Sequence record: NC_054903.1
DNA length: 64,000 nt
From: Enterobacteria phage GiZh
Direction: 5' to 3' (one strand)
Under the pieces are notes generated by a model, which was not told the origin of the DNA, ran no database searches, and saw only the letters and a program-made list of their open reading frames with translations. The translations under genes and the position numbers were made by a program. Positions 11,238 through 17,004 of this stretch are shown here, in pieces (within the stretch, counting starts at the first letter, position 1; every line of letters begins with the position of its first letter).

Positions 11238-11527
11238 TCAGTCTCCAATTTAATGTTCATAATTCTAGCGTATGATTGTGCCATCTCCGCGCCTCGTTCT
11301 ATACATTCAAAATCAGAAGAGCACGGGTCATTTTTATAGGTCGTTCTCATAAAACTATAGAATTGTTCAGACGATTCTACGCTTTTATTTTCAAAAAGTG
11401 TATAAACGTGCCTAATACCAGATTCCATAAATTTATCAAAATGAGGATCGACATTCGCTTCAATCGATGGAGATAAAACAAATGACAATCCTAGCATGGC
11501 AAAAAGTGCCGTTGCTTTTAAGGCCAT
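11234..11527 (-). CDS. rI: RI lysis-inhibition regulator (membrane-anchored, periplasmic)
   Basis: 97 aa, MALKATALFAMLGLSFVLSPSIEANVDPHFDKF...; I recognise this as T4 RI; N-terminal signal-anchor; AGGAGG upstream. Confidence 0.9.
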   Translation of the reverse strand: MALKATALFAMLGLSFVLSPSIEANVDPHFDKFMESGIRHVYTLFENKSVESSEQFYSFMRTTYKNDPCSSDFECIERGAEMAQSYARIMNIKLETE

Positions 11528-11539
11528 AAAGGCCTCCTA

Positions 11540-11752
11540 TCATTTTTGTCCTGTATTTACTTTATGCCGATGCACGGCCTTAACTTTATCAAGGTATTTT
11601 TCAAAATTTCGCAATCTAGTATAGTCTGCCGGAGATTGGTTGAGTGATACTTCTCGACGCAAAGCTGAAATGATATTTCCAACTTCCCTACGAATTTCAT
11701 CTAATTGAAGAACAGTAAGATTGCGAAGTTGCTTTTCAGTTAATTGTAGCAT
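11540..11752 (-). CDS. hypothetical protein, 70 aa (position of T4 rI.1)
   Basis: ORF track; ATG with AAAGGGG upstream. Confidence 0.65.
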
Positions 11753-11794
11753 ATATACCCCTTTAGTTAGATAAACCTATTTATAACTTTTGCA

Positions 11795-12376
11795 CTAACC
11801 GAGCTTTTTAGTTAATTCATTCCAATGTTTTCTGCACAAAGAAACATAAATTTCATCACCAATACAGATTTGATTACCTTCTTTAACTGGTGTTCCATCT
11901 TCCATTAATCGAGCTGTCATAATCGCTTTTTTGCCGCAATGACAAACTGCCTTTAGTTCAATAAGTTTATCTGCAATCGCTAAAAGTTCTTTAGAACCTT
12001 CAAACAATTTTCCAGCGAAATCAGTCCTTAATCCATAAGCCATAACAGGAACATTATATGTATCAACAATTCGGCTCAATTGATGCACCTGTTCAGTTTT
12101 TAAAAACTGAGCTTCATCTACAAATACGCAATGAATATCTTTTTGTGCTTCAGCCCATTTATAGAACTCGAAAATATCCATATCATCTGTAATAATATTC
12201 GCTTCCTGTTTAATTCCAATGCGAGAAACAACTTCACAGACAGAATCGCGAGTATCAATAGCAGGCTTAAGAACTAATACACTCATTCCACGTTCTTTAT
12301 AATTATGTGCAGCAGTCAAAAGAGAAGCAGATTTTCCAGCATTCATTGCTGCATAAGTAAAAATTAAACTCGCCAT
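11795..12376 (-). CDS. tk: thymidine kinase
   Basis: 193 aa; N-terminal P-loop-like AAMNAGKS and two CxxC pairs typical of type II thymidine kinases; matches T4 Tk length and sequence from memory. Confidence 0.92.
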   Translation of the reverse strand: MASLIFTYAAMNAGKSASLLTAAHNYKERGMSVLVLKPAIDTRDSVCEVVSRIGIKQEANIITDDMDIFEFYKWAEAQKDIHCVFVDEAQFLKTEQVHQLSRIVDTYNVPVMAYGLRTDFAGKLFEGSKELLAIADKLIELKAVCHCGKKAIMTARLMEDGTPVKEGNQICIGDEIYVSLCRKHWNELTKKLG

Positions 12377-12385
12377 ATCACCTTC

Positions 12386-12571
12386 TTAAAGCGTATTCAC
12401 ATAAGCTATTAATTCATTTTCTTTCTTATCAAACCGATCAGCAAATTCTTCCTGCTGTTCTGGAGATAGCGGGCCGTATTCATCATAAAAGGTGTTTGCT
12501 TCTATATGCTCATCTAGAAGTTCATGGATAAGCTCAAACAATTTATCTTTTTGTTCTTTGCTTAGACTCAC
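12386..12571 (-). CDS. small acidic helical protein, 61 aa (GTG start)
   Basis: ORF track; only start is GTG at 12571; composition like the 9654-10755 small proteins. Confidence 0.5.
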   Translation of the reverse strand: MSLSKEQKDKLFELIHELLDEHIEANTFYDEYGPLSPEQQEEFADRFDKKENELIAYVNTL

Positions 12572-12740
12572 AGTATGTCAATCCCCAAAAGTTTTAAAAT
12601 GACTCGTTTCTGATTCATAACCGCTACGATTGAATGACCGTTGGGGTCTTTTTGACCTGATCCAATTATAAATCCTTTTTGCGCAGAAAGTTCAATCAAA
12701 ACATCAAGTTCACGTAATAATTGATATTTTAAATCATCAT

Positions 12741-12953
12741 TCATTTTGGTTTACCTTCTTTAACGAAATCAGGATAAGGATAAAATCCTGAATAAAATCC
12801 TTCACCTTTATGATTGATGCATCCTTTATTAGAACAATAGCACCAATAATCGAAATCACAAGCCATTTCATCGTTGCATAAAGCAAAAACAACCGGCCAC
12901 TTACACTTTTCACAGTGGGCATTTTTAAGAATACTAGTTTGGCTCATAACCAT
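12741..12953 (-). CDS. cysteine-rich small protein, ~70 aa
   Basis: ORF track 12741..12968 (TTG start) trimmed to ATG at 12953; multiple Cys (CEKCKW...CNDEMACDFDYWCYCSNKGC) suggest metal binding. Confidence 0.5.
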   Translation of the reverse strand: MVMSQTSILKNAHCEKCKWPVVFALCNDEMACDFDYWCYCSNKGCINHKGEGFYSGFYPYPDFVKEGKPK

Positions 12954-13156
12954 GTAACCTTTAAGCAATATTCTTCTACATGTTGTTTACGACCTTTCTT
13001 ATCAATAAAGGTATATTCAACGAATGTTCCAATGTAGTCTTTATCTACATCATGTGGACTATTAATTGGACATTTAGTACGGCAAATGCGTTCCCATTGA
13101 CGAATAATTACTGCTTTGTTTTTAGGATCAAACGGATGCGGGTAATGTACTTTCAT
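12944..13156 (-). CDS. small Cys/His-containing protein, 70 aa
   Basis: ORF track; ATG with GGTGG upstream. Confidence 0.5.
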   Translation of the reverse strand: MKVHYPHPFDPKNKAVIIRQWERICRTKCPINSPHDVDKDYIGTFVEYTFIDKKGRKQHVEEYCLKVTWL

Positions 13157-13607
13157 AATCCACCACTATTAAATCAATATCAGGAGTAAACATGTCGATT
13201 AATTTAGAAACCTTATCCCAATCGCCGCCAGCAATACCACAACCTATGCGTGGAATGTAAATTACCGGTTTAAACAAAAGGGTTTCTGCCTGTAGATTTA
13301 ATTCTATCATGCAGTTTACTAAAGCACCATAATCAAGATTAGGACCTGGTTCGTATTGCGTATACAAGTTATAACATATGCCAAAACCATTAGGTTTATG
13401 TTTAAAAACAATAGACATATCGCCTAATTTATCACGAGAACCGTACTCAGTAGTGGTTTTATCTATTTCTAAAATTTTGGGATAGGCTCTTGCTAATTGA
13501 CCCGCTACACCTGAACCCATAGTATGAAAACAATTGCACCCGTGCGCAATAATATTACCTTGAAGAAATAGGGCGACAATATCGCCCTTGATATATTTTG
13601 CAATCAT
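13128..13607 (-). CDS. macro-domain (ADP-ribose binding/processing) protein, 159 aa
   Basis: Motifs GDIVALFLQGNIIAHGCNC, MGSGVAGQL and IGCGIAGGDW correspond to the three conserved macro-domain loops; ATGA overlap with the upstream gene. Confidence 0.8.
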   Translation of the reverse strand: MIAKYIKGDIVALFLQGNIIAHGCNCFHTMGSGVAGQLARAYPKILEIDKTTTEYGSRDKLGDMSIVFKHKPNGFGICYNLYTQYEPGPNLDYGALVNCMIELNLQAETLLFKPVIYIPRIGCGIAGGDWDKVSKLIDMFTPDIDLIVVDYESTLPASV

Positions 13608-13945
13608 CTAGTACTCAATCCTCGATTATAAGAATCTACCAAACGGTCAACCATTGAATGACAAGCGGCTTTATCTTTCTCCTCCGCAACTGAACATTCT
13701 AAGGTATTCCACTTTTTAGCATATCGTTTTAATAATGTATCGTTTTTGTATCTACTTGATTTATCTCTTTCTCCGTCTTTATATGCATATATTAATTTCT
13801 GCGCAAATTCAGCTTGGCATGCTTTATTTTTCCCGCAATAATCCGCTGCAGTACGGTTTACATACTCTCTAATTTCAGTATATGATGTATCTGCTAACGC
13901 AGAAAATGAAATTAATCCTATACATAAAACCAAAATTTTAGTCAT
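13604..13945 (-). CDS. small secreted protein, 113 aa (position of T4 vs)
   Basis: N-terminal signal peptide MTKILVLCIGLISFSALA; identity with T4 Vs is positional only. Confidence 0.6.
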   Translation of the reverse strand: MTKILVLCIGLISFSALADTSYTEIREYVNRTAADYCGKNKACQAEFAQKLIYAYKDGERDKSSRYKNDTLLKRYAKKWNTLECSVAEEKDKAACHSMVDRLVDSYNRGLSTR

Positions 13946-14483
13946 TTACTATTTCCAAAAGTTTATTATTTTTAAGGTAATTAGCCTTTTCTAGGACTTC
14001 AGAAGCATATTTAGAACCTGCTTTAACATTCCATCCCGAATTATAAGAGGATATTGCTTTTCTTATATCGCCCTTATGTATATTTAACCAATAAGAAAGT
14101 TCAATGTACGCCCAGGAAGCTGAATTGGATCGTTTATTCAACATTCTTTTTATTTCAGCATCGGTCATATTATAACCAAGTTCCTTAACTCTTGCTCGCA
14201 TAGTAGGCAAATAATTTTGGAACATTCCATAAGCGTGATGCTTTGGTTTAGATTTTAAATTAACTCCGCCAGAGCTTTCTTGCCATAAAATAGCAGCCAT
14301 TATATGACCTAATCCGCTCTTGTGGATATTTTTGTGTGTTTTATATTTTCCATCCTTAGAAAACTGTTCCCCGAATTGATACGCGTAACGCATGTTATCG
14401 AGTTGGACATTACTGAAAGTATGCTCGGAGCTATGTGCCATCATTGAAATGGCCAATAGACCAGCGAGTAGTGCTTTTCTCAT
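13938..14483 (-). CDS. secreted lytic transglycosylase (SLT domain), 181 aa
   Basis: Signal peptide MRKALLAGLLAISMMAHS; SLT catalytic region ILWQESSGG and AYGMFQ; GAGGT upstream of ATG. Confidence 0.8.
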   Translation of the reverse strand: MRKALLAGLLAISMMAHSSEHTFSNVQLDNMRYAYQFGEQFSKDGKYKTHKNIHKSGLGHIMAAILWQESSGGVNLKSKPKHHAYGMFQNYLPTMRARVKELGYNMTDAEIKRMLNKRSNSASWAYIELSYWLNIHKGDIRKAISSYNSGWNVKAGSKYASEVLEKANYLKNNKLLEIVND

Positions 14484-14490
14484 GCTTACC

Positions 14491-14952
14491 TCATTGAGTT
14501 TTAATTACTGCTTTAGAAGCCTTTCCTGGTAAACGACGACTGTTGATAATTGCCATCCTGCATTGAAGTGACGGGTTTTTGAACTTCTCATTAGGCTTAC
14601 AAACCGTAAATCCAAGCCAAAGATTTCCATCTGTGATTTCTAAACGTCCAGGACGATATTCAACCCCATCAATAAAATCCTCGTCAATGTCAGGACGCGG
14701 AGGCATACTCAGGAATTCATTAACTTCTAAAACATGGTCTTTTATTTTATGGAATAATTCAAAAACATATGTCTCATCAATCTCCCGTTGAATTGCACGA
14801 TCAAGAAGATGCTGAGAATATTTTAGATGAAACGATGAGACCCCTGCTGCTTTTGATGCCTCACGAATCTCATTGTTAATTTGACGAAACTCCGACTCAA
14901 AATGACGACGAAGCTTATTTCGACGGATAAAAACTTCTGTGTTGATAGTCAT
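14491..14952 (-). CDS. regB: RegB sequence-specific endoribonuclease
   Basis: 153 aa beginning MTINTEVFIRRNKLRRHFESEF; matches my recollection of T4 RegB in sequence, length and position; GAGGAG upstream; own early promoter at 14980-15008. Confidence 0.85.
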   Translation of the reverse strand: MTINTEVFIRRNKLRRHFESEFRQINNEIREASKAAGVSSFHLKYSQHLLDRAIQREIDETYVFELFHKIKDHVLEVNEFLSMPPRPDIDEDFIDGVEYRPGRLEITDGNLWLGFTVCKPNEKFKNPSLQCRMAIINSRRLPGKASKAVIKTQ

Positions 14953-14979
14953 GTTATTCTCCTCTTAACTGATAGAAAA

Positions 14980-15008
14980 ATTATACCACAGTCAAGAGGA
15001 AAAGTAAA
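14980..15008 (-). promoter_or_regulatory. early promoter (PeSL-type) of regB: -35 TTTACT, 17 bp, -10 TATAAT
   Basis: Inverted repeat TCCTCTT / AAGAGGA (14960-14966, 14994-15000) brackets the -10; 21-nt leader to the regB ATG. Confidence 0.6.
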
Positions 15009-15011
15009 CAG

Positions 15012-15290
15012 TTATTCTTTAAATCTAATCAATTTATTCATAGACTTTGAAACTTCTGCACGAACCTCACGTAAGTTTTTAAGCTGTTCAAGACGCTGCT
15101 CATAGTAAGCAATTTCATCTTCTTCGAGACAGTCCTGTGAATCTTCTTTAAGATAACGTGCATAGTCCTGAAAAGCTTTACGGACTACTTCCTGAAAGTC
15201 ATCAAGACTTTGAATTTTCTTAGGAGCGGCAGATACACGACGAGGTGCAGTATAATACTCATAACCAAACCCTGCACTTAATTGAGCCAT
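15012..15290 (-). CDS. hypothetical protein, 92 aa
   Basis: ORF track 15012..15332 (GTG start) trimmed to ATG at 15290 with AGAGGAA upstream; TAATG coupling to the upstream stop. Confidence 0.55.
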
Positions 15291-15556
15291 TAGTATTTTT
15301 CCTCTGGTTGGAACACTGCACGACAAGCCCACATACTGGCTTCTTTGAGTTTCGTTTTAGCAATAGTTAACTGATCGAGGCTTTCAGCGTAATTCTTCGC
15401 GAGTTCATCATCTTCACAGCTATCAAATGCTTCCCAAAATTCATCGTATAAAGCATCAAAGATAAGTCCTAAACGAACTTCAGCGTCTTTAATAGCATTT
15501 ACTTTACCGATTTTTTCGTCGGTATGCGGCTTATAACCTTTAATATCTTCAATCAT
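15290..15556 (-). CDS. small helical protein, 88 aa; position of T4 vs.4 (anti-CBASS Acb2 family?)
   Basis: ORF track 15290..15592 trimmed to ATG at 15556 (MIEDIKGY) with GAGGAA upstream. Assignment to vs.4/Acb2 is by gene order only. Confidence 0.5.
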
Positions 15557-15770
15557 ATTTGACTTCCTCACCAGTGCATAAATCATATTCAACTAAACGA
15601 ATAGGTTCATGAATGCCATATCCTTGAACAGAAATTTCTGTCGTAGGATAAATTCCATCAATATCACCCATATTCCAGGCTTCATTAAATTGCTGTTCGC
15701 CTGAATTACTAAACCACTCGGCGAAAGCATTTAGCACATCTTTAGAACCTTCAATAATTATCTTTGCCAT
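15549..15770 (-). CDS. hypothetical protein, 73 aa
   Basis: ORF track; TAATG coupling to the upstream stop. Confidence 0.55.
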   Translation of the reverse strand: MAKIIIEGSKDVLNAFAEWFSNSGEQQFNEAWNMGDIDGIYPTTEISVQGYGIHEPIRLVEYDLCTGEEVKYD

Positions 15771-16132
15771 TACAAACTCTCGGTGAAGGTACGAGCGATA
15801 ACGTCGCGCTGCTGTTCCGGAGTCAGAGAATTAAAGCGAACTGCATAACCTGATACACGGATGGTCAGCTGCGGATATTTTTCCGGATGCTTAACTGCAT
15901 CTTCCAGAGTTTCACGACGCAGAACGTTAACGTTCAGGTGTTGACCACCTTCAATTTTAACTGTAGGCTGTGGTTCAATTTCAATTTCACGGGCATGCAA
16001 ACCGTAGAAAATTTCTGGGTCTACAAAAGAGTCCTCTTTAAAGGTTTTAGAGACAATAATTCGTGCTTGAATACCATCTTCAAAATAAATAGTACCTTTA
16101 TGTGTGCCTTCAAGAATTTGATATGCTTTCAT
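15770..16132 (-). CDS. autonomous glycyl-radical cofactor protein (GrcA/YfiD-like), 120 aa
   Basis: C-terminus ...[33 protein letters not shown] carries the glycyl-radical motif RVSGY; C-terminal ~60 aa look identical to E. coli GrcA from memory; the 3' half of the gene is visibly GC-richer than flanking phage DNA. Confidence 0.9.
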
Positions 16133-16138
16133 ATAACC

Positions 16139-16468
16139 TCAATTAGAAAATAAATTTATCCAAGATTGTTCTTTAATTAAAAATGGCTCAGAATCATATG
16201 CCATTAAACTTTGGGTAATTAGTCCTTTAAAAGGCCCATCAATAAATTCCATGGTAAAATATGGAATTTTATTCATTAATCTTGCATTAGGAGCAGTGCA
16301 CAAAACTCTGCATCCTTTGAATACGCCTTTTTGTAATTTGTATTGCTTGGGATAAAATTCGCTTAAAATGTTATTATTTGCCAAAATTTCAAAATGATTT
16401 ACCAATTTATTTTTAATAGTTTTTGGCGAAAAATAGAGATATTCGAAAAGCTGTGTGTCTGTCATCAT
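16139..16468 (-). CDS. hypothetical protein, ~109 aa
   Basis: ORF track 16139..16519 trimmed to ATG at 16468 (MMTDTQLFEY), which forms an ATGA overlap with the upstream stop. Confidence 0.55.
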   Translation of the reverse strand: MMTDTQLFEYLYFSPKTIKNKLVNHFEILANNNILSEFYPKQYKLQKGVFKGCRVLCTAPNARLMNKIPYFTMEFIDGPFKGLITQSLMAYDSEPFLIKEQSWINLFSN

Positions 16469-17004
16469 TGCATTCCGATTACGAAAAACTGTGGACGAGT
16501 AATACCACCAATGCAACATTTACTATTACAGCAGTAGTGTACAGTGTCAATATGGACGCTATAAATCTTATCCATATCAGGAGATTTGACAGGCTCATCA
16601 ATTATATACAAAATTCGCGAAAGCGATAAACCTCTGAACTTGCTTCCTTTATTACCGATAAAACTACGGACAGAATCGGTAAATAAACGGAATCGAATAT
16701 CATCGCTAGAATAACGAGAAAATTCTTTTTTAATGTGGCCTGCAGAAATTTTAGCGTAAGCTGAAGTATTAGAAAGAACAATAACTGTTCCACCATCATA
16801 CAGCCAATTAGCGGCAAAGTTAGTTACTGCAGTTGATTTACCGGATTGACGTCCACCATCTATACGAAGTGTGCAGTACTGTTTAAGTAATTCTTCAAAT
16901 GGTGGGATATAATCGTTTTTACAAATTTCTTCTACTCTAGCATCAGAATGGTGTGTAAAAGCATTCATCAGGGATAGATAAGGACCAGTTAAAAATGTTC
17001 TCAT
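16465..17004 (-). CDS. small P-loop NTPase, ~179 aa
   Basis: Walker A GGRQSGKST and Walker-B-like LYIIDE; ORF track 16465..17052 trimmed to ATG at 17004 (MRTFLTGPY) with AGAGAG upstream. Confidence 0.62.
   Translation of the reverse strand: MRTFLTGPYLSLMNAFTHHSDARVEEICKNDYIPPFEELLKQYCTLRIDGGRQSGKSTAVTNFAANWLYDGGTVIVLSNTSAYAKISAGHIKKEFSRYSSDDIRFRLFTDSVRSFIGNKGSKFRGLSLSRILYIIDEPVKSPDMDKIYSVHIDTVHYCCNSKCCIGGITRPQFFVIGMQ

What the first reader, a model, noticed from the sequence alone, without database searches (positions are those of the whole stretch)
13128..13607. Phage-encoded macro domain (ADP-ribose binding/hydrolase) protein
The 159-aa product has the three macro-domain signature loops (GDIVALFLQGNIIAHGCNC, MGSGVAGQL, IGCGIAGGDW). 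Macro domains remove or bind ADP-ribose. In a phage early region that fits reversal of host ADP-ribosylating defences (DarT-like DNA ADP-ribosylation or protein mono-ADP-ribosyltransferase toxins) or regulation of the phage's own ADP-ribosyltransferases. The gene lies in the tk-vs segment, translationally coupled to its neighbours.
Basis: partly seen in the sequence, partly recalled or inferred. Interest (0 to 1): 0.6.

Follow-up and report, generated by a model that had tools for sequence, protein, structure and literature searches.

The report
T4-like phage macrodomain gene tk.4 (adfM)
This is a real and already annotated macrodomain gene of a T4-like phage; its T4 counterpart was recently shown to protect the phage from the bacterial DarTG2 system, which blocks phage replication by attaching ADP-ribose to phage DNA.

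Summary
Window 13128-13607 (minus strand) is a 159-aa ORF carrying all three quoted loops. It scores above the Pfam Macro threshold, and its AlphaFold model (pLDDT 93) is a macro fold. The closest solved structures are BT1257, DarG, Poa1p and TARG1, all of the ALC1-like class.

The window is a Tequatrovirus, and the gene sits where T4 has tk.4, between tk.3 and vs. Near-identical GenBank records already call it a "macro domain containing protein". A 2025 preprint showed that a T4 tk.4 knockout becomes sensitive to DarTG2 and renamed the gene adfM.

Two refinements:
- **Active site.** The catalytic lysine of DarG and TARG1 is an invariant glutamine (Q84) here. The same is true of Streptomyces SCO6735, which cleaves thymidine-ADP-ribose by a water-mediated mechanism. 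PhiKZ "AdfM" is a different, lysine-type DarG-like protein.
- **Divergent allele.** This protein is only 57% identical to T4 Tk.4, although the flanking genes are 96-100% identical. It is closer (75-77%) to Dhakavirus alleles, so the gene was replaced by recombination. This allele has not been tested experimentally.

Interest is low.

The parts
13128..13607 (-). tk.4 / adfM-type coding sequence: a 159-aa, single-domain macrodomain protein
13530..13544 (-). Loop 1 motif H22-G-C-N25-C26. N25 aligns with SCO6735 Asn27 and the Asn of DarG; H22 aligns with SCO6735 His24
   Evidence: Invariant in 70 homologues; alignment with SCO6735, BT1257 and DarG; mutagenesis of the SCO6735 equivalents in PMC9411070
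13494..13520 (-). Glycine-rich loop M30-G-S-G-V-A-G-Q-L38, the GxG ADP-ribose-binding loop after the second strand
   Evidence: G33 and A35 are invariant; G31 occurs in 62 of 70; G31 and G33 are invariant across the TARG1, DarG and SCO6735 alignment
13356..13370 (-). N80-L-Y-T-Q84 motif. Q84 occupies the position of the catalytic Lys of TARG1 (K84) and DarG (K80), and of the essential Gln85 of SCO6735
   Evidence: HMM alignment to TARG1; hhalign to Mtb DarG; multiple alignment; Q present in 70 of 70 homologues; SCO6735 Q85A/E mutants are inactive (PMC9411070)
13218..13253 (-). Phosphate-binding loop P119-R-I-G-C-G-I-A-G-G-D-W130. It nearly matches GCGLAGGxW of SCO6735 and BT1257. A126 replaces TARG1 Asp125
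   Evidence: G122 and G124 align with SCO6735 G126 and G128 (G128E reduces activity)
13604..13607 (-). ATGA overlap of the vs stop codon (TGA) with the tk.4 start codon (ATG). A GAGGA Shine-Dalgarno-like element lies 11 nt upstream
13128..13156 (-). 29-nt overlap of the tk.4 3' end with the start of tk.3 (DUF7202); in T4 the overlap is 4 nt
   Evidence: residues 156-159 are disordered in the model
13110..13490 (.). Tract of low nucleotide identity to T4 (30-73% per 30-nt block) inside otherwise 97-100% identical DNA. This is the replaced part of the allele
   Evidence: Sliding identity; protein identities of flanking genes versus tk.4

Best explanation
The gene is the tk.4 (adfM) ortholog of a T4-like phage. 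It encodes a stand-alone ALC1-like (TARG1/DarG/SCO6735-related) macrodomain, made from the leftward tk-regB gene string.

The most likely function is as an orphan antitoxin-like ADP-ribosylglycohydrolase. When host DarT2 attaches ADP-ribose to thymidine in single-stranded phage DNA, the enzyme binds the ADP-ribose in the cleft formed by its loops (H22-C26, M30-L38, P119-W130). It then cleaves the ribose-thymine bond, releasing ADP-ribose and restoring replicable DNA.

The chemistry is probably that of SCO6735 rather than DarG. Gln84, held by Asn25, positions the distal ribose, and a water molecule starts the reaction. No catalytic lysine is involved.

What is shown:
- The fold, the motifs and the synteny.
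- The DarTG2 phenotype of the T4 ortholog.
- Thymidine-ADP-ribose cleavage by the Gln-type relative SCO6735.

What is inferred:
- That this 57%-identical allele has the same activity.
- That the T4 protein acts by hydrolysis rather than by binding DarT2.
For: - **Orthology.** Same locus as T4 tk.4, with 57% identity and E 4e-69.
- **Genetics.** The T4 tk.4 knockout is sensitised to DarTG2 (10.1101/2025.11.20.689424).
- **Active site.** Q84, N25, H22 and GCGxAGGxW are shared with SCO6735. SCO6735 cleaves DarT-made thymidine-ADP-ribose on DNA, and its Q85A/E and N27S mutants are inactive or nearly so (PMC9411070).
- **Conservation.** The motif residues are invariant in 70 homologues, including the T4 type.
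- **Context.** No ADP-ribosyltransferase domain was found among the immediate neighbours, which is consistent with an orphan eraser.
Against: - No enzyme assay exists for any Tk.4 protein in the papers I could search.
- The allele tested genetically is the T4 type, which T2 and T6 also carry. This one differs at 43% of positions.
- Two DNA-contacting lysines of SCO6735 (K34, K89) are not conserved here (S32). The long mobile loop of the SCO6735/BT1257 subclass is also missing. The SCO6735 mechanism may therefore not transfer fully.
- The active-site similarity to Poa1p (HxCNC loop) leaves room for small-molecule substrates.
- The DarTG2 phenotype alone cannot distinguish hydrolysis from DarT2 inhibition by binding, which SCO6735 Q85A also shows.
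Confidence: 0.7

Rival explanations
1. It acts on small soluble ADP-ribose derivatives, not on DNA. Candidate substrates are ADP-ribose-1''-phosphate (as for yeast Poa1p), O-acetyl-ADP-ribose, or ADP-ribose-based immune signals or toxic metabolites. This is the origin of the 'phosphatase' label in T4 and PHROGs.
For: - T4 Tk.4 is annotated 'phosphatase; contains A1pp phosphatase motif', and PHROG 335 is labelled 'phosphatase'.
- A comparative survey argued that phage Macro domains mainly counter low-molecular-weight ADP-ribose derivatives (PMC9503650).
Against: - The only phenotype known for the ortholog is specific to DarTG2, a DNA-modifying system.
- Q84 and N25 match the residues needed for thymidine-ADP-ribose cleavage in SCO6735.
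- The 'phosphatase' name is an inherited annotation, not a measurement.
Confidence: 0.1
2. It neutralises DarT2 mainly by binding and inhibiting the toxin, or by shielding ADP-ribosylated DNA. Catalysis would be dispensable.
For: Catalytically dead SCO6735 Q85A, DarG K80A and TARG1 K84A all inhibit DarT in vitro, and SCO6735 does so most strongly (PMC9411070). Other phage anti-DarT factors (AdfA, AdfB) act by binding the toxin (PMC11825919). A fast-diverging surface with a swapped allele would fit co-evolution with a protein partner.
Against: Every residue expected for catalysis is invariant across homologues with 40-96% identity from many hosts. That is hard to explain for a pure binder. The protein also lacks the C-terminal DarT-binding domain of DarG (159 aa, one domain).
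Confidence: 0.08
3. It reverses protein ADP-ribosylation. The marks could be those made by the phage's own Alt, ModA or ModB, or those made by host or competitor protein ADP-ribosyltransferases.
For: TARG1 and SCO6735 also remove ADP-ribose from glutamate/aspartate-modified protein (PMC9411070). T4-like phages encode their own ADP-ribosyltransferases (PMC9503650).
Confidence: 0.06
4. Its main substrate is RNA: it removes ADP-ribose from uracil bases or RNA ends.
For: TARG1-like macrodomains, including bacterial ones, efficiently hydrolyse uracil-ADP-ribose (PMC13036486). RNA-targeting ADP-ribosyltransferase defences against T-even phages exist (CmdTAC, PMC11618068, title and abstract).
Against: The abstract of PMC11618068 says CmdTAC gives robust defence against T-even phages, so Tk.4 does not seem to neutralise it. 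No uracil-modifying bacterial defence appeared in my literature searches.
Confidence: 0.05

Closest known systems
T4 Tk.4 = AdfM (anti-DarT factor Macrodomain), bioRxiv 10.1101/2025.11.20.689424
   Same: Same locus (between tk.3 and vs), same family, and all invariant motif residues shared, including N25, Q84 and W130.
   Different: Only 57% identical, although the flanking genes are 96-100% identical. The third loop here is GCGIAGGDW, the family consensus; T4 has GAGIGKGNW. This protein is 4 residues longer and overlaps tk.3 by 29 nt. This allele has not been tested on DarTG2.
Streptomyces coelicolor SCO6735 and Bacteroides BT1257 (Gln-type subclass of ALC1-like macrodomains; PDB 5E3B, 2FG1, 2AFC)
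   Same: Best sequence and structure matches. Gln replaces the catalytic Lys. The supporting Asn, the His and the GCGxAGGxW loop are shared. All are stand-alone proteins without a DarT partner.
   Different: About 27% identity. The 5-6-residue extension of the 'mobile loop' is absent here, and SCO6735 Lys34 and Lys89 have no counterpart.
DarG macrodomain (antitoxin of DarTG2; PDB 5M3I, 5M31, 7OMU)
   Different: Gln instead of the Lys of the P-T-K motif. There is no C-terminal DarT-binding domain and no adjacent darT.
PhiKZ gp104 'AdfM' (Cell Rep 2026, PMC13309987)
   Same: Same name and the same proposed role. It removes DarT2-made ADP-ribose from DNA in vitro.
   Different: It belongs to a different macrodomain lineage. 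It is a true DarG-like protein (E 9e-25 to Mtb DarG) and keeps the P-T-K lysine. It is only marginally similar to the window protein (BLASTP E 0.001).
Human TARG1/OARD1 and yeast Poa1p
   Different: The TARG1 catalytic dyad K84/D125 corresponds to Q84/A126 here. Poa1p is an ADP-ribose-1''-phosphate phosphatase.

Membership tests
Macro domain superfamily (Pfam PF01661) | Profile score above the curated threshold | tested here: met
   33.1 bits against a cut-off of 22, residues 22-136
Macro domain superfamily (Pfam PF01661) | Alpha/beta macro fold with a central mixed sheet | tested here: met
Macro domain superfamily (Pfam PF01661) | Conserved glycine-rich ADP-ribose and phosphate-binding loops | tested here: met
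   G33, G122 and G124 are invariant in 70 homologues; G31, G33 and G122 are invariant across the TARG1, DarG and SCO6735 alignment
ALC1-like (TARG1/DarG/SCO6735) macrodomain class | Closest structures belong to this class rather than to the MacroD, viral nsP3 or PARG classes | tested here: met
DarG (DarTG2 antitoxin) | Catalytic lysine (K80) in the P-T-K motif | tested here: not met
   Gln84 aligns to that lysine; Gln occurs in 70 of 70 homologues
DarG (DarTG2 antitoxin) | Second, DarT-interacting C-terminal domain | tested here: not met
   159 aa in a single macro domain spanning residues 2-151 of the model
DarG (DarTG2 antitoxin) | Encoded next to its darT toxin | tested here: not met
   The neighbours are tk.3 (DUF7202), vs, vs.1 (SLT) and regB, with no ADP-ribosyltransferase domain found. 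A chromosomal Pelagimonas homologue also has no such neighbour
SCO6735/BT1257 subclass | Gln at the catalytic position, held by a conserved Asn | tested here: met
   Q84 and N25 align with Gln85 and Asn27 (read with the numbering)
SCO6735/BT1257 subclass | Mobile loop about five residues longer than in DarG and TARG1 | tested here: not met
   BT1257 and SCO6735 carry a 5-6-residue insertion after the Gln that the Tk.4 family, TARG1 and DarG lack
SCO6735/BT1257 subclass | DNA-positioning lysines Lys34 and Lys89 | tested here: not met
   Lys34 aligns with S32 (Ala in most homologues). Lys89 falls in the loop that differs here
AdfM of T-even phages (T4 Tk.4) | Orthologous position and homology | tested here: met
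   Lies between tk.3 and vs; 57% identity, E 4e-69
AdfM of T-even phages (T4 Tk.4) | Needed for growth on a DarTG2 host | not testable with these tools
   Shown only for the T4 allele. T2 and T6 carry that allele. Phages with the window allele have not been examined
Poa1p-type ADP-ribose-1''-phosphate phosphatase | Phosphatase activity on ADP-ribose-1''-phosphate | not testable with these tools

The most novel reading that the evidence does not exclude
Tevenvirinae carry two old, deeply diverged tk.4 lineages. One is the window/Dhakavirus type with the GCGIAGGDW loop. The other is the T4/Mosigvirus type with GAGIG(K/G)GNW. They are swapped by recombination as a cassette confined to the gene. 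The two lineages may differ in specificity, for example against different DarT2 variants or different ADP-ribosylated bases, or in whether they act by hydrolysis or by toxin binding. In that case the dimorphism would record an arms race with ADP-ribosylating defences.
Probability: 0.2. Interest if true: 0.5.

Novelty: already known. Interest (0 to 1): 0.2.

Why it matters
This result mainly serves as a correct annotation. In these phages the gene should be called a macrodomain ADP-ribosylglycohydrolase (tk.4/adfM type), not a "phosphatase" or "hypothetical protein".

Three smaller points may help people working on DarTG:
- The T-even AdfM is a glutamine-type enzyme like SCO6735, not a lysine-type DarG copy. 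Its chemistry, and any inhibitor design, should therefore follow SCO6735.
- The name AdfM now covers two unrelated macrodomain lineages, T4 Tk.4 and PhiKZ gp104.
- About 300 sequenced T4-like phages carry an allele only 57% identical to the tested one. Resistance to DarTG2 should not be assumed for them without a test.

Tried and rejected
- **DarG orphan copy.** I considered that the protein is a direct orphan copy of DarG and rejected it. The catalytic Lys is replaced by Gln, there is no second domain, and its sequence scores are better to BT1257 and TARG1.
- **Same family as PhiKZ AdfM.** Rejected. The pairwise BLASTP E-value is only 0.001, and gp104 matches DarG at 9e-25 with the Lys retained.
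- **Toxin partner nearby.** None was found among the six neighbouring ORFs, in the annotation of the near-identical phage A2, or next to a chromosomal bacterial homologue.
- **Promoter scan.** The scan of 11500-16500 found no more sigma-70-like sites than shuffled sequence (15 against 19 expected). It therefore says nothing about early expression; the 'early region' statement rests on my own knowledge of T4.
- **CmdTAC paper.** I checked it for a link to phage macrodomains and found only reference-list mentions.
- **Literature search.** A search for further work on tk.4 and DarT returned only the HIDEN-SEQ preprint.
- **Active-site geometry.** I could not inspect it in the model, because coordinates are not exposed to the scripts.

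Full report
**Observation.** Window 13128-13607 on the minus strand is an ATG-initiated ORF of 159 codons. The product scores 33.1 bits on Pfam Macro (PF01661) against a cut-off of 22, and 1e-70 on PHROG 335, which is labelled 'phosphatase'. G+C content is 36.7%, close to the window mean of 36.1%.

The vs stop codon overlaps the start codon as ATGA at 13604-13607, with a GAGGA element 11 nt upstream. The 3' end runs 29 nt into the next gene, tk.3. Translational coupling is a reasonable inference from this layout, but it was not measured.

**Where the window comes from.** The 3 kb around the gene is 99% identical to Tequatrovirus genomes such as Shigella phage A2 and Escherichia phage ECO4. In phage A2 the same ORF is already annotated 'macro domain containing protein, IPR002589'.

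Gene order is rI, tk, small ORFs, tk.3, this gene, vs, vs.1, regB. That places the gene at the position of T4 tk.4, which RefSeq annotates 'phosphatase; contains A1pp phosphatase motif'.

**Fold and class.**
- I aligned 70 homologues with 40-96% identity. H22, G23, N25, C26, G33, A35, D49, N80, Y82, Q84, P119, G122, G124 and W130 are invariant.
- AlphaFold2 on this alignment gave mean pLDDT 93.4 and pTM 0.88. Only the last four residues are disordered.
- A profile search of PDB sequences gives a similar picture: BT1257 6e-20, TARG1 7e-17, SCO6735 1e-15, Poa1p 4e-15, DarG 7e-12.

**What is already published.**
- A November 2025 preprint used a T4 transposon library on an E. coli host expressing DarTG2. 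tk.4 was the single significant hit, and a clean tk.4 knockout became sensitive to DarTG2. The authors renamed the gene adfM (anti-DarT factor Macrodomain) and proposed enzymatic removal of ADP-ribose from DNA. They showed no biochemistry (10.1101/2025.11.20.689424).
- Earlier work had shown that T4 lacking adfA and adfN stays resistant to DarTG2, and predicted a further factor (PMC11825919).
- A 2026 Cell Reports paper gave the same name, AdfM, to PhiKZ gp104 and showed that it removes DarT2-made ADP-ribose from an oligonucleotide (PMC13309987).

**Refinement 1: the active site is not DarG-like.**
- TARG1 uses Lys84 and Asp125, and DarG uses Lys80. In HMM, hhalign and MAFFT alignments the lysine position is Gln84 here, and the aspartate position is Ala126. 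Gln is present in 70 of 70 homologues, including T4, T2 and T6.
- The same substitution defines SCO6735 and BT1257. SCO6735 cleaves DarT-made thymidine-ADP-ribose on DNA faster than DarG or TARG1.
- SCO6735 mutants Q85A and Q85E are dead, and N27S is nearly dead. The authors proposed a water-initiated mechanism in which Gln85, held by Asn27, positions the distal ribose (PMC9411070).
- The window protein has the equivalents N25 and Q84, plus H22 and an almost identical GCG(I/L)AGGxW loop. The SCO6735 chemistry is therefore the best available model.
- The protein is not a clean member of that subclass, however. The 5-6-residue 'mobile loop' extension is missing, and Lys34 and Lys89 have no counterpart.
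- PhiKZ gp104 is a true DarG-type protein. It matches Mtb DarG at 9e-25, retains the P-T-K lysine, and is barely similar to the window protein (E 0.001). The name AdfM therefore covers two separate recruitments of macrodomains by phages.

**Refinement 2: this is a swapped allele.**
- The protein is 57% identical to T4 Tk.4. Its neighbours are nearly identical to T4: Tk 99.5%, Tk.3 95.7%, Vs 97-99%, Vs.1 100% and RegB 99.3%.
- Nucleotide identity to T4 is 97-100% on both sides and falls to 30-73% between about 13110 and 13490, within the gene.
- The gene tree disagrees with the flanking genes. The window protein is 75-77% identical to Dhakavirus alleles, whose flanking genes are only 46-71% identical. 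T4 Tk.4 is 84.5% identical to a Mosigvirus allele.
- In the phage collection, 311 records carry an allele at least 90% identical to the window type, and 224 carry one at least 90% identical to the T4 type.
- T2, T4 and T6, the classic laboratory phages, all carry the T4 type. The window type has therefore not been tested, as far as I could find.

**Context.** None of the six neighbouring ORFs has an ADP-ribosyltransferase domain. A chromosomal homologue in Pelagimonas also stands alone. Other homologues lie in phage-like contigs. This fits an orphan eraser rather than a toxin-antitoxin pair.

**Mechanism and rivals.**
- Best-supported reading (confidence 0.7): an orphan, glutamine-type ADP-ribosylglycohydrolase removes DarT2-made thymidine-ADP-ribose from phage single-stranded DNA.
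- Rival: processing of small ADP-ribose derivatives, as with Poa1p and as the 'phosphatase' label suggests (0.1).
- Rival: toxin inhibition by binding, which dead SCO6735 also shows (0.08).
- Rival: reversal of protein ADP-ribosylation (0.06).
- Rival: reversal of RNA uracil ADP-ribosylation (0.05).
- None of the rivals is excluded by computation. The assays in the next-steps section would separate them.

**Verdict.** This is a genuine, correctly read macrodomain gene. It is already annotated in public records, and a function has already been assigned to its T4 ortholog. Residual interest lies in the glutamine-type chemistry and in the untested divergent allele. Interest is 0.2, and novelty is 'already known'.

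Noticed in passing
window 12386-12968 (minus strand): The small-ORF segment between tk and tk.3 is not collinear with T4. It holds a 61-aa DUF7438 protein only 52% identical to T4 Tk.2, a 58-aa ORF with no Pfam match or T4 counterpart, and a 70-75-aa 'Phage zinc binding domain' (PF23895) ORF that T4 lacks at this place. T4 tk.1 has no counterpart here.
   Followed up: partly
window 13570-13588 (both strands): A perfect 7-bp inverted repeat, AGGGCGA-n5-TCGCCCT, lies inside tk.4 codons 7-13. The scan scored it as terminator-like on both strands. It sits in the part of the gene that is still about 97% identical to T4, and it may be coincidental.
   Followed up: no
window 13604-13945 (minus strand): The vs product is 113 aa here against 115 aa in T4. 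Two residues are deleted in the hydrophobic, signal-peptide-like N-terminus; the rest is nearly identical.
   Followed up: no
window 14980-15008 (minus strand): The best sigma-70-like site of the region (TTTACT, 17-nt spacer, TATAAT, with an extended -10 TG) lies just upstream of regB. It is a candidate promoter for the regB-vs-tk.4 string. Promoter-like sites in the region as a whole are no more frequent than in shuffled sequence.
   Followed up: no
L008 541-888 and 5001-5447: A phage-like metagenomic contig carries a Tk.4-family macrodomain within about 4 kb of an Acb5 (anti-CBASS) gene and a PolyA_pol-type nucleotidyltransferase. This suggests a cluster of counter-defence genes.
   Followed up: no
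L003 (Mosigvirus), L004 and L005 (Dhakavirus), tk.4 loci: The tk.4 gene tree is incongruent with the neighbouring genes across three Tevenvirinae genera. This indicates repeated exchange of this one gene between genera.
   Followed up: partly
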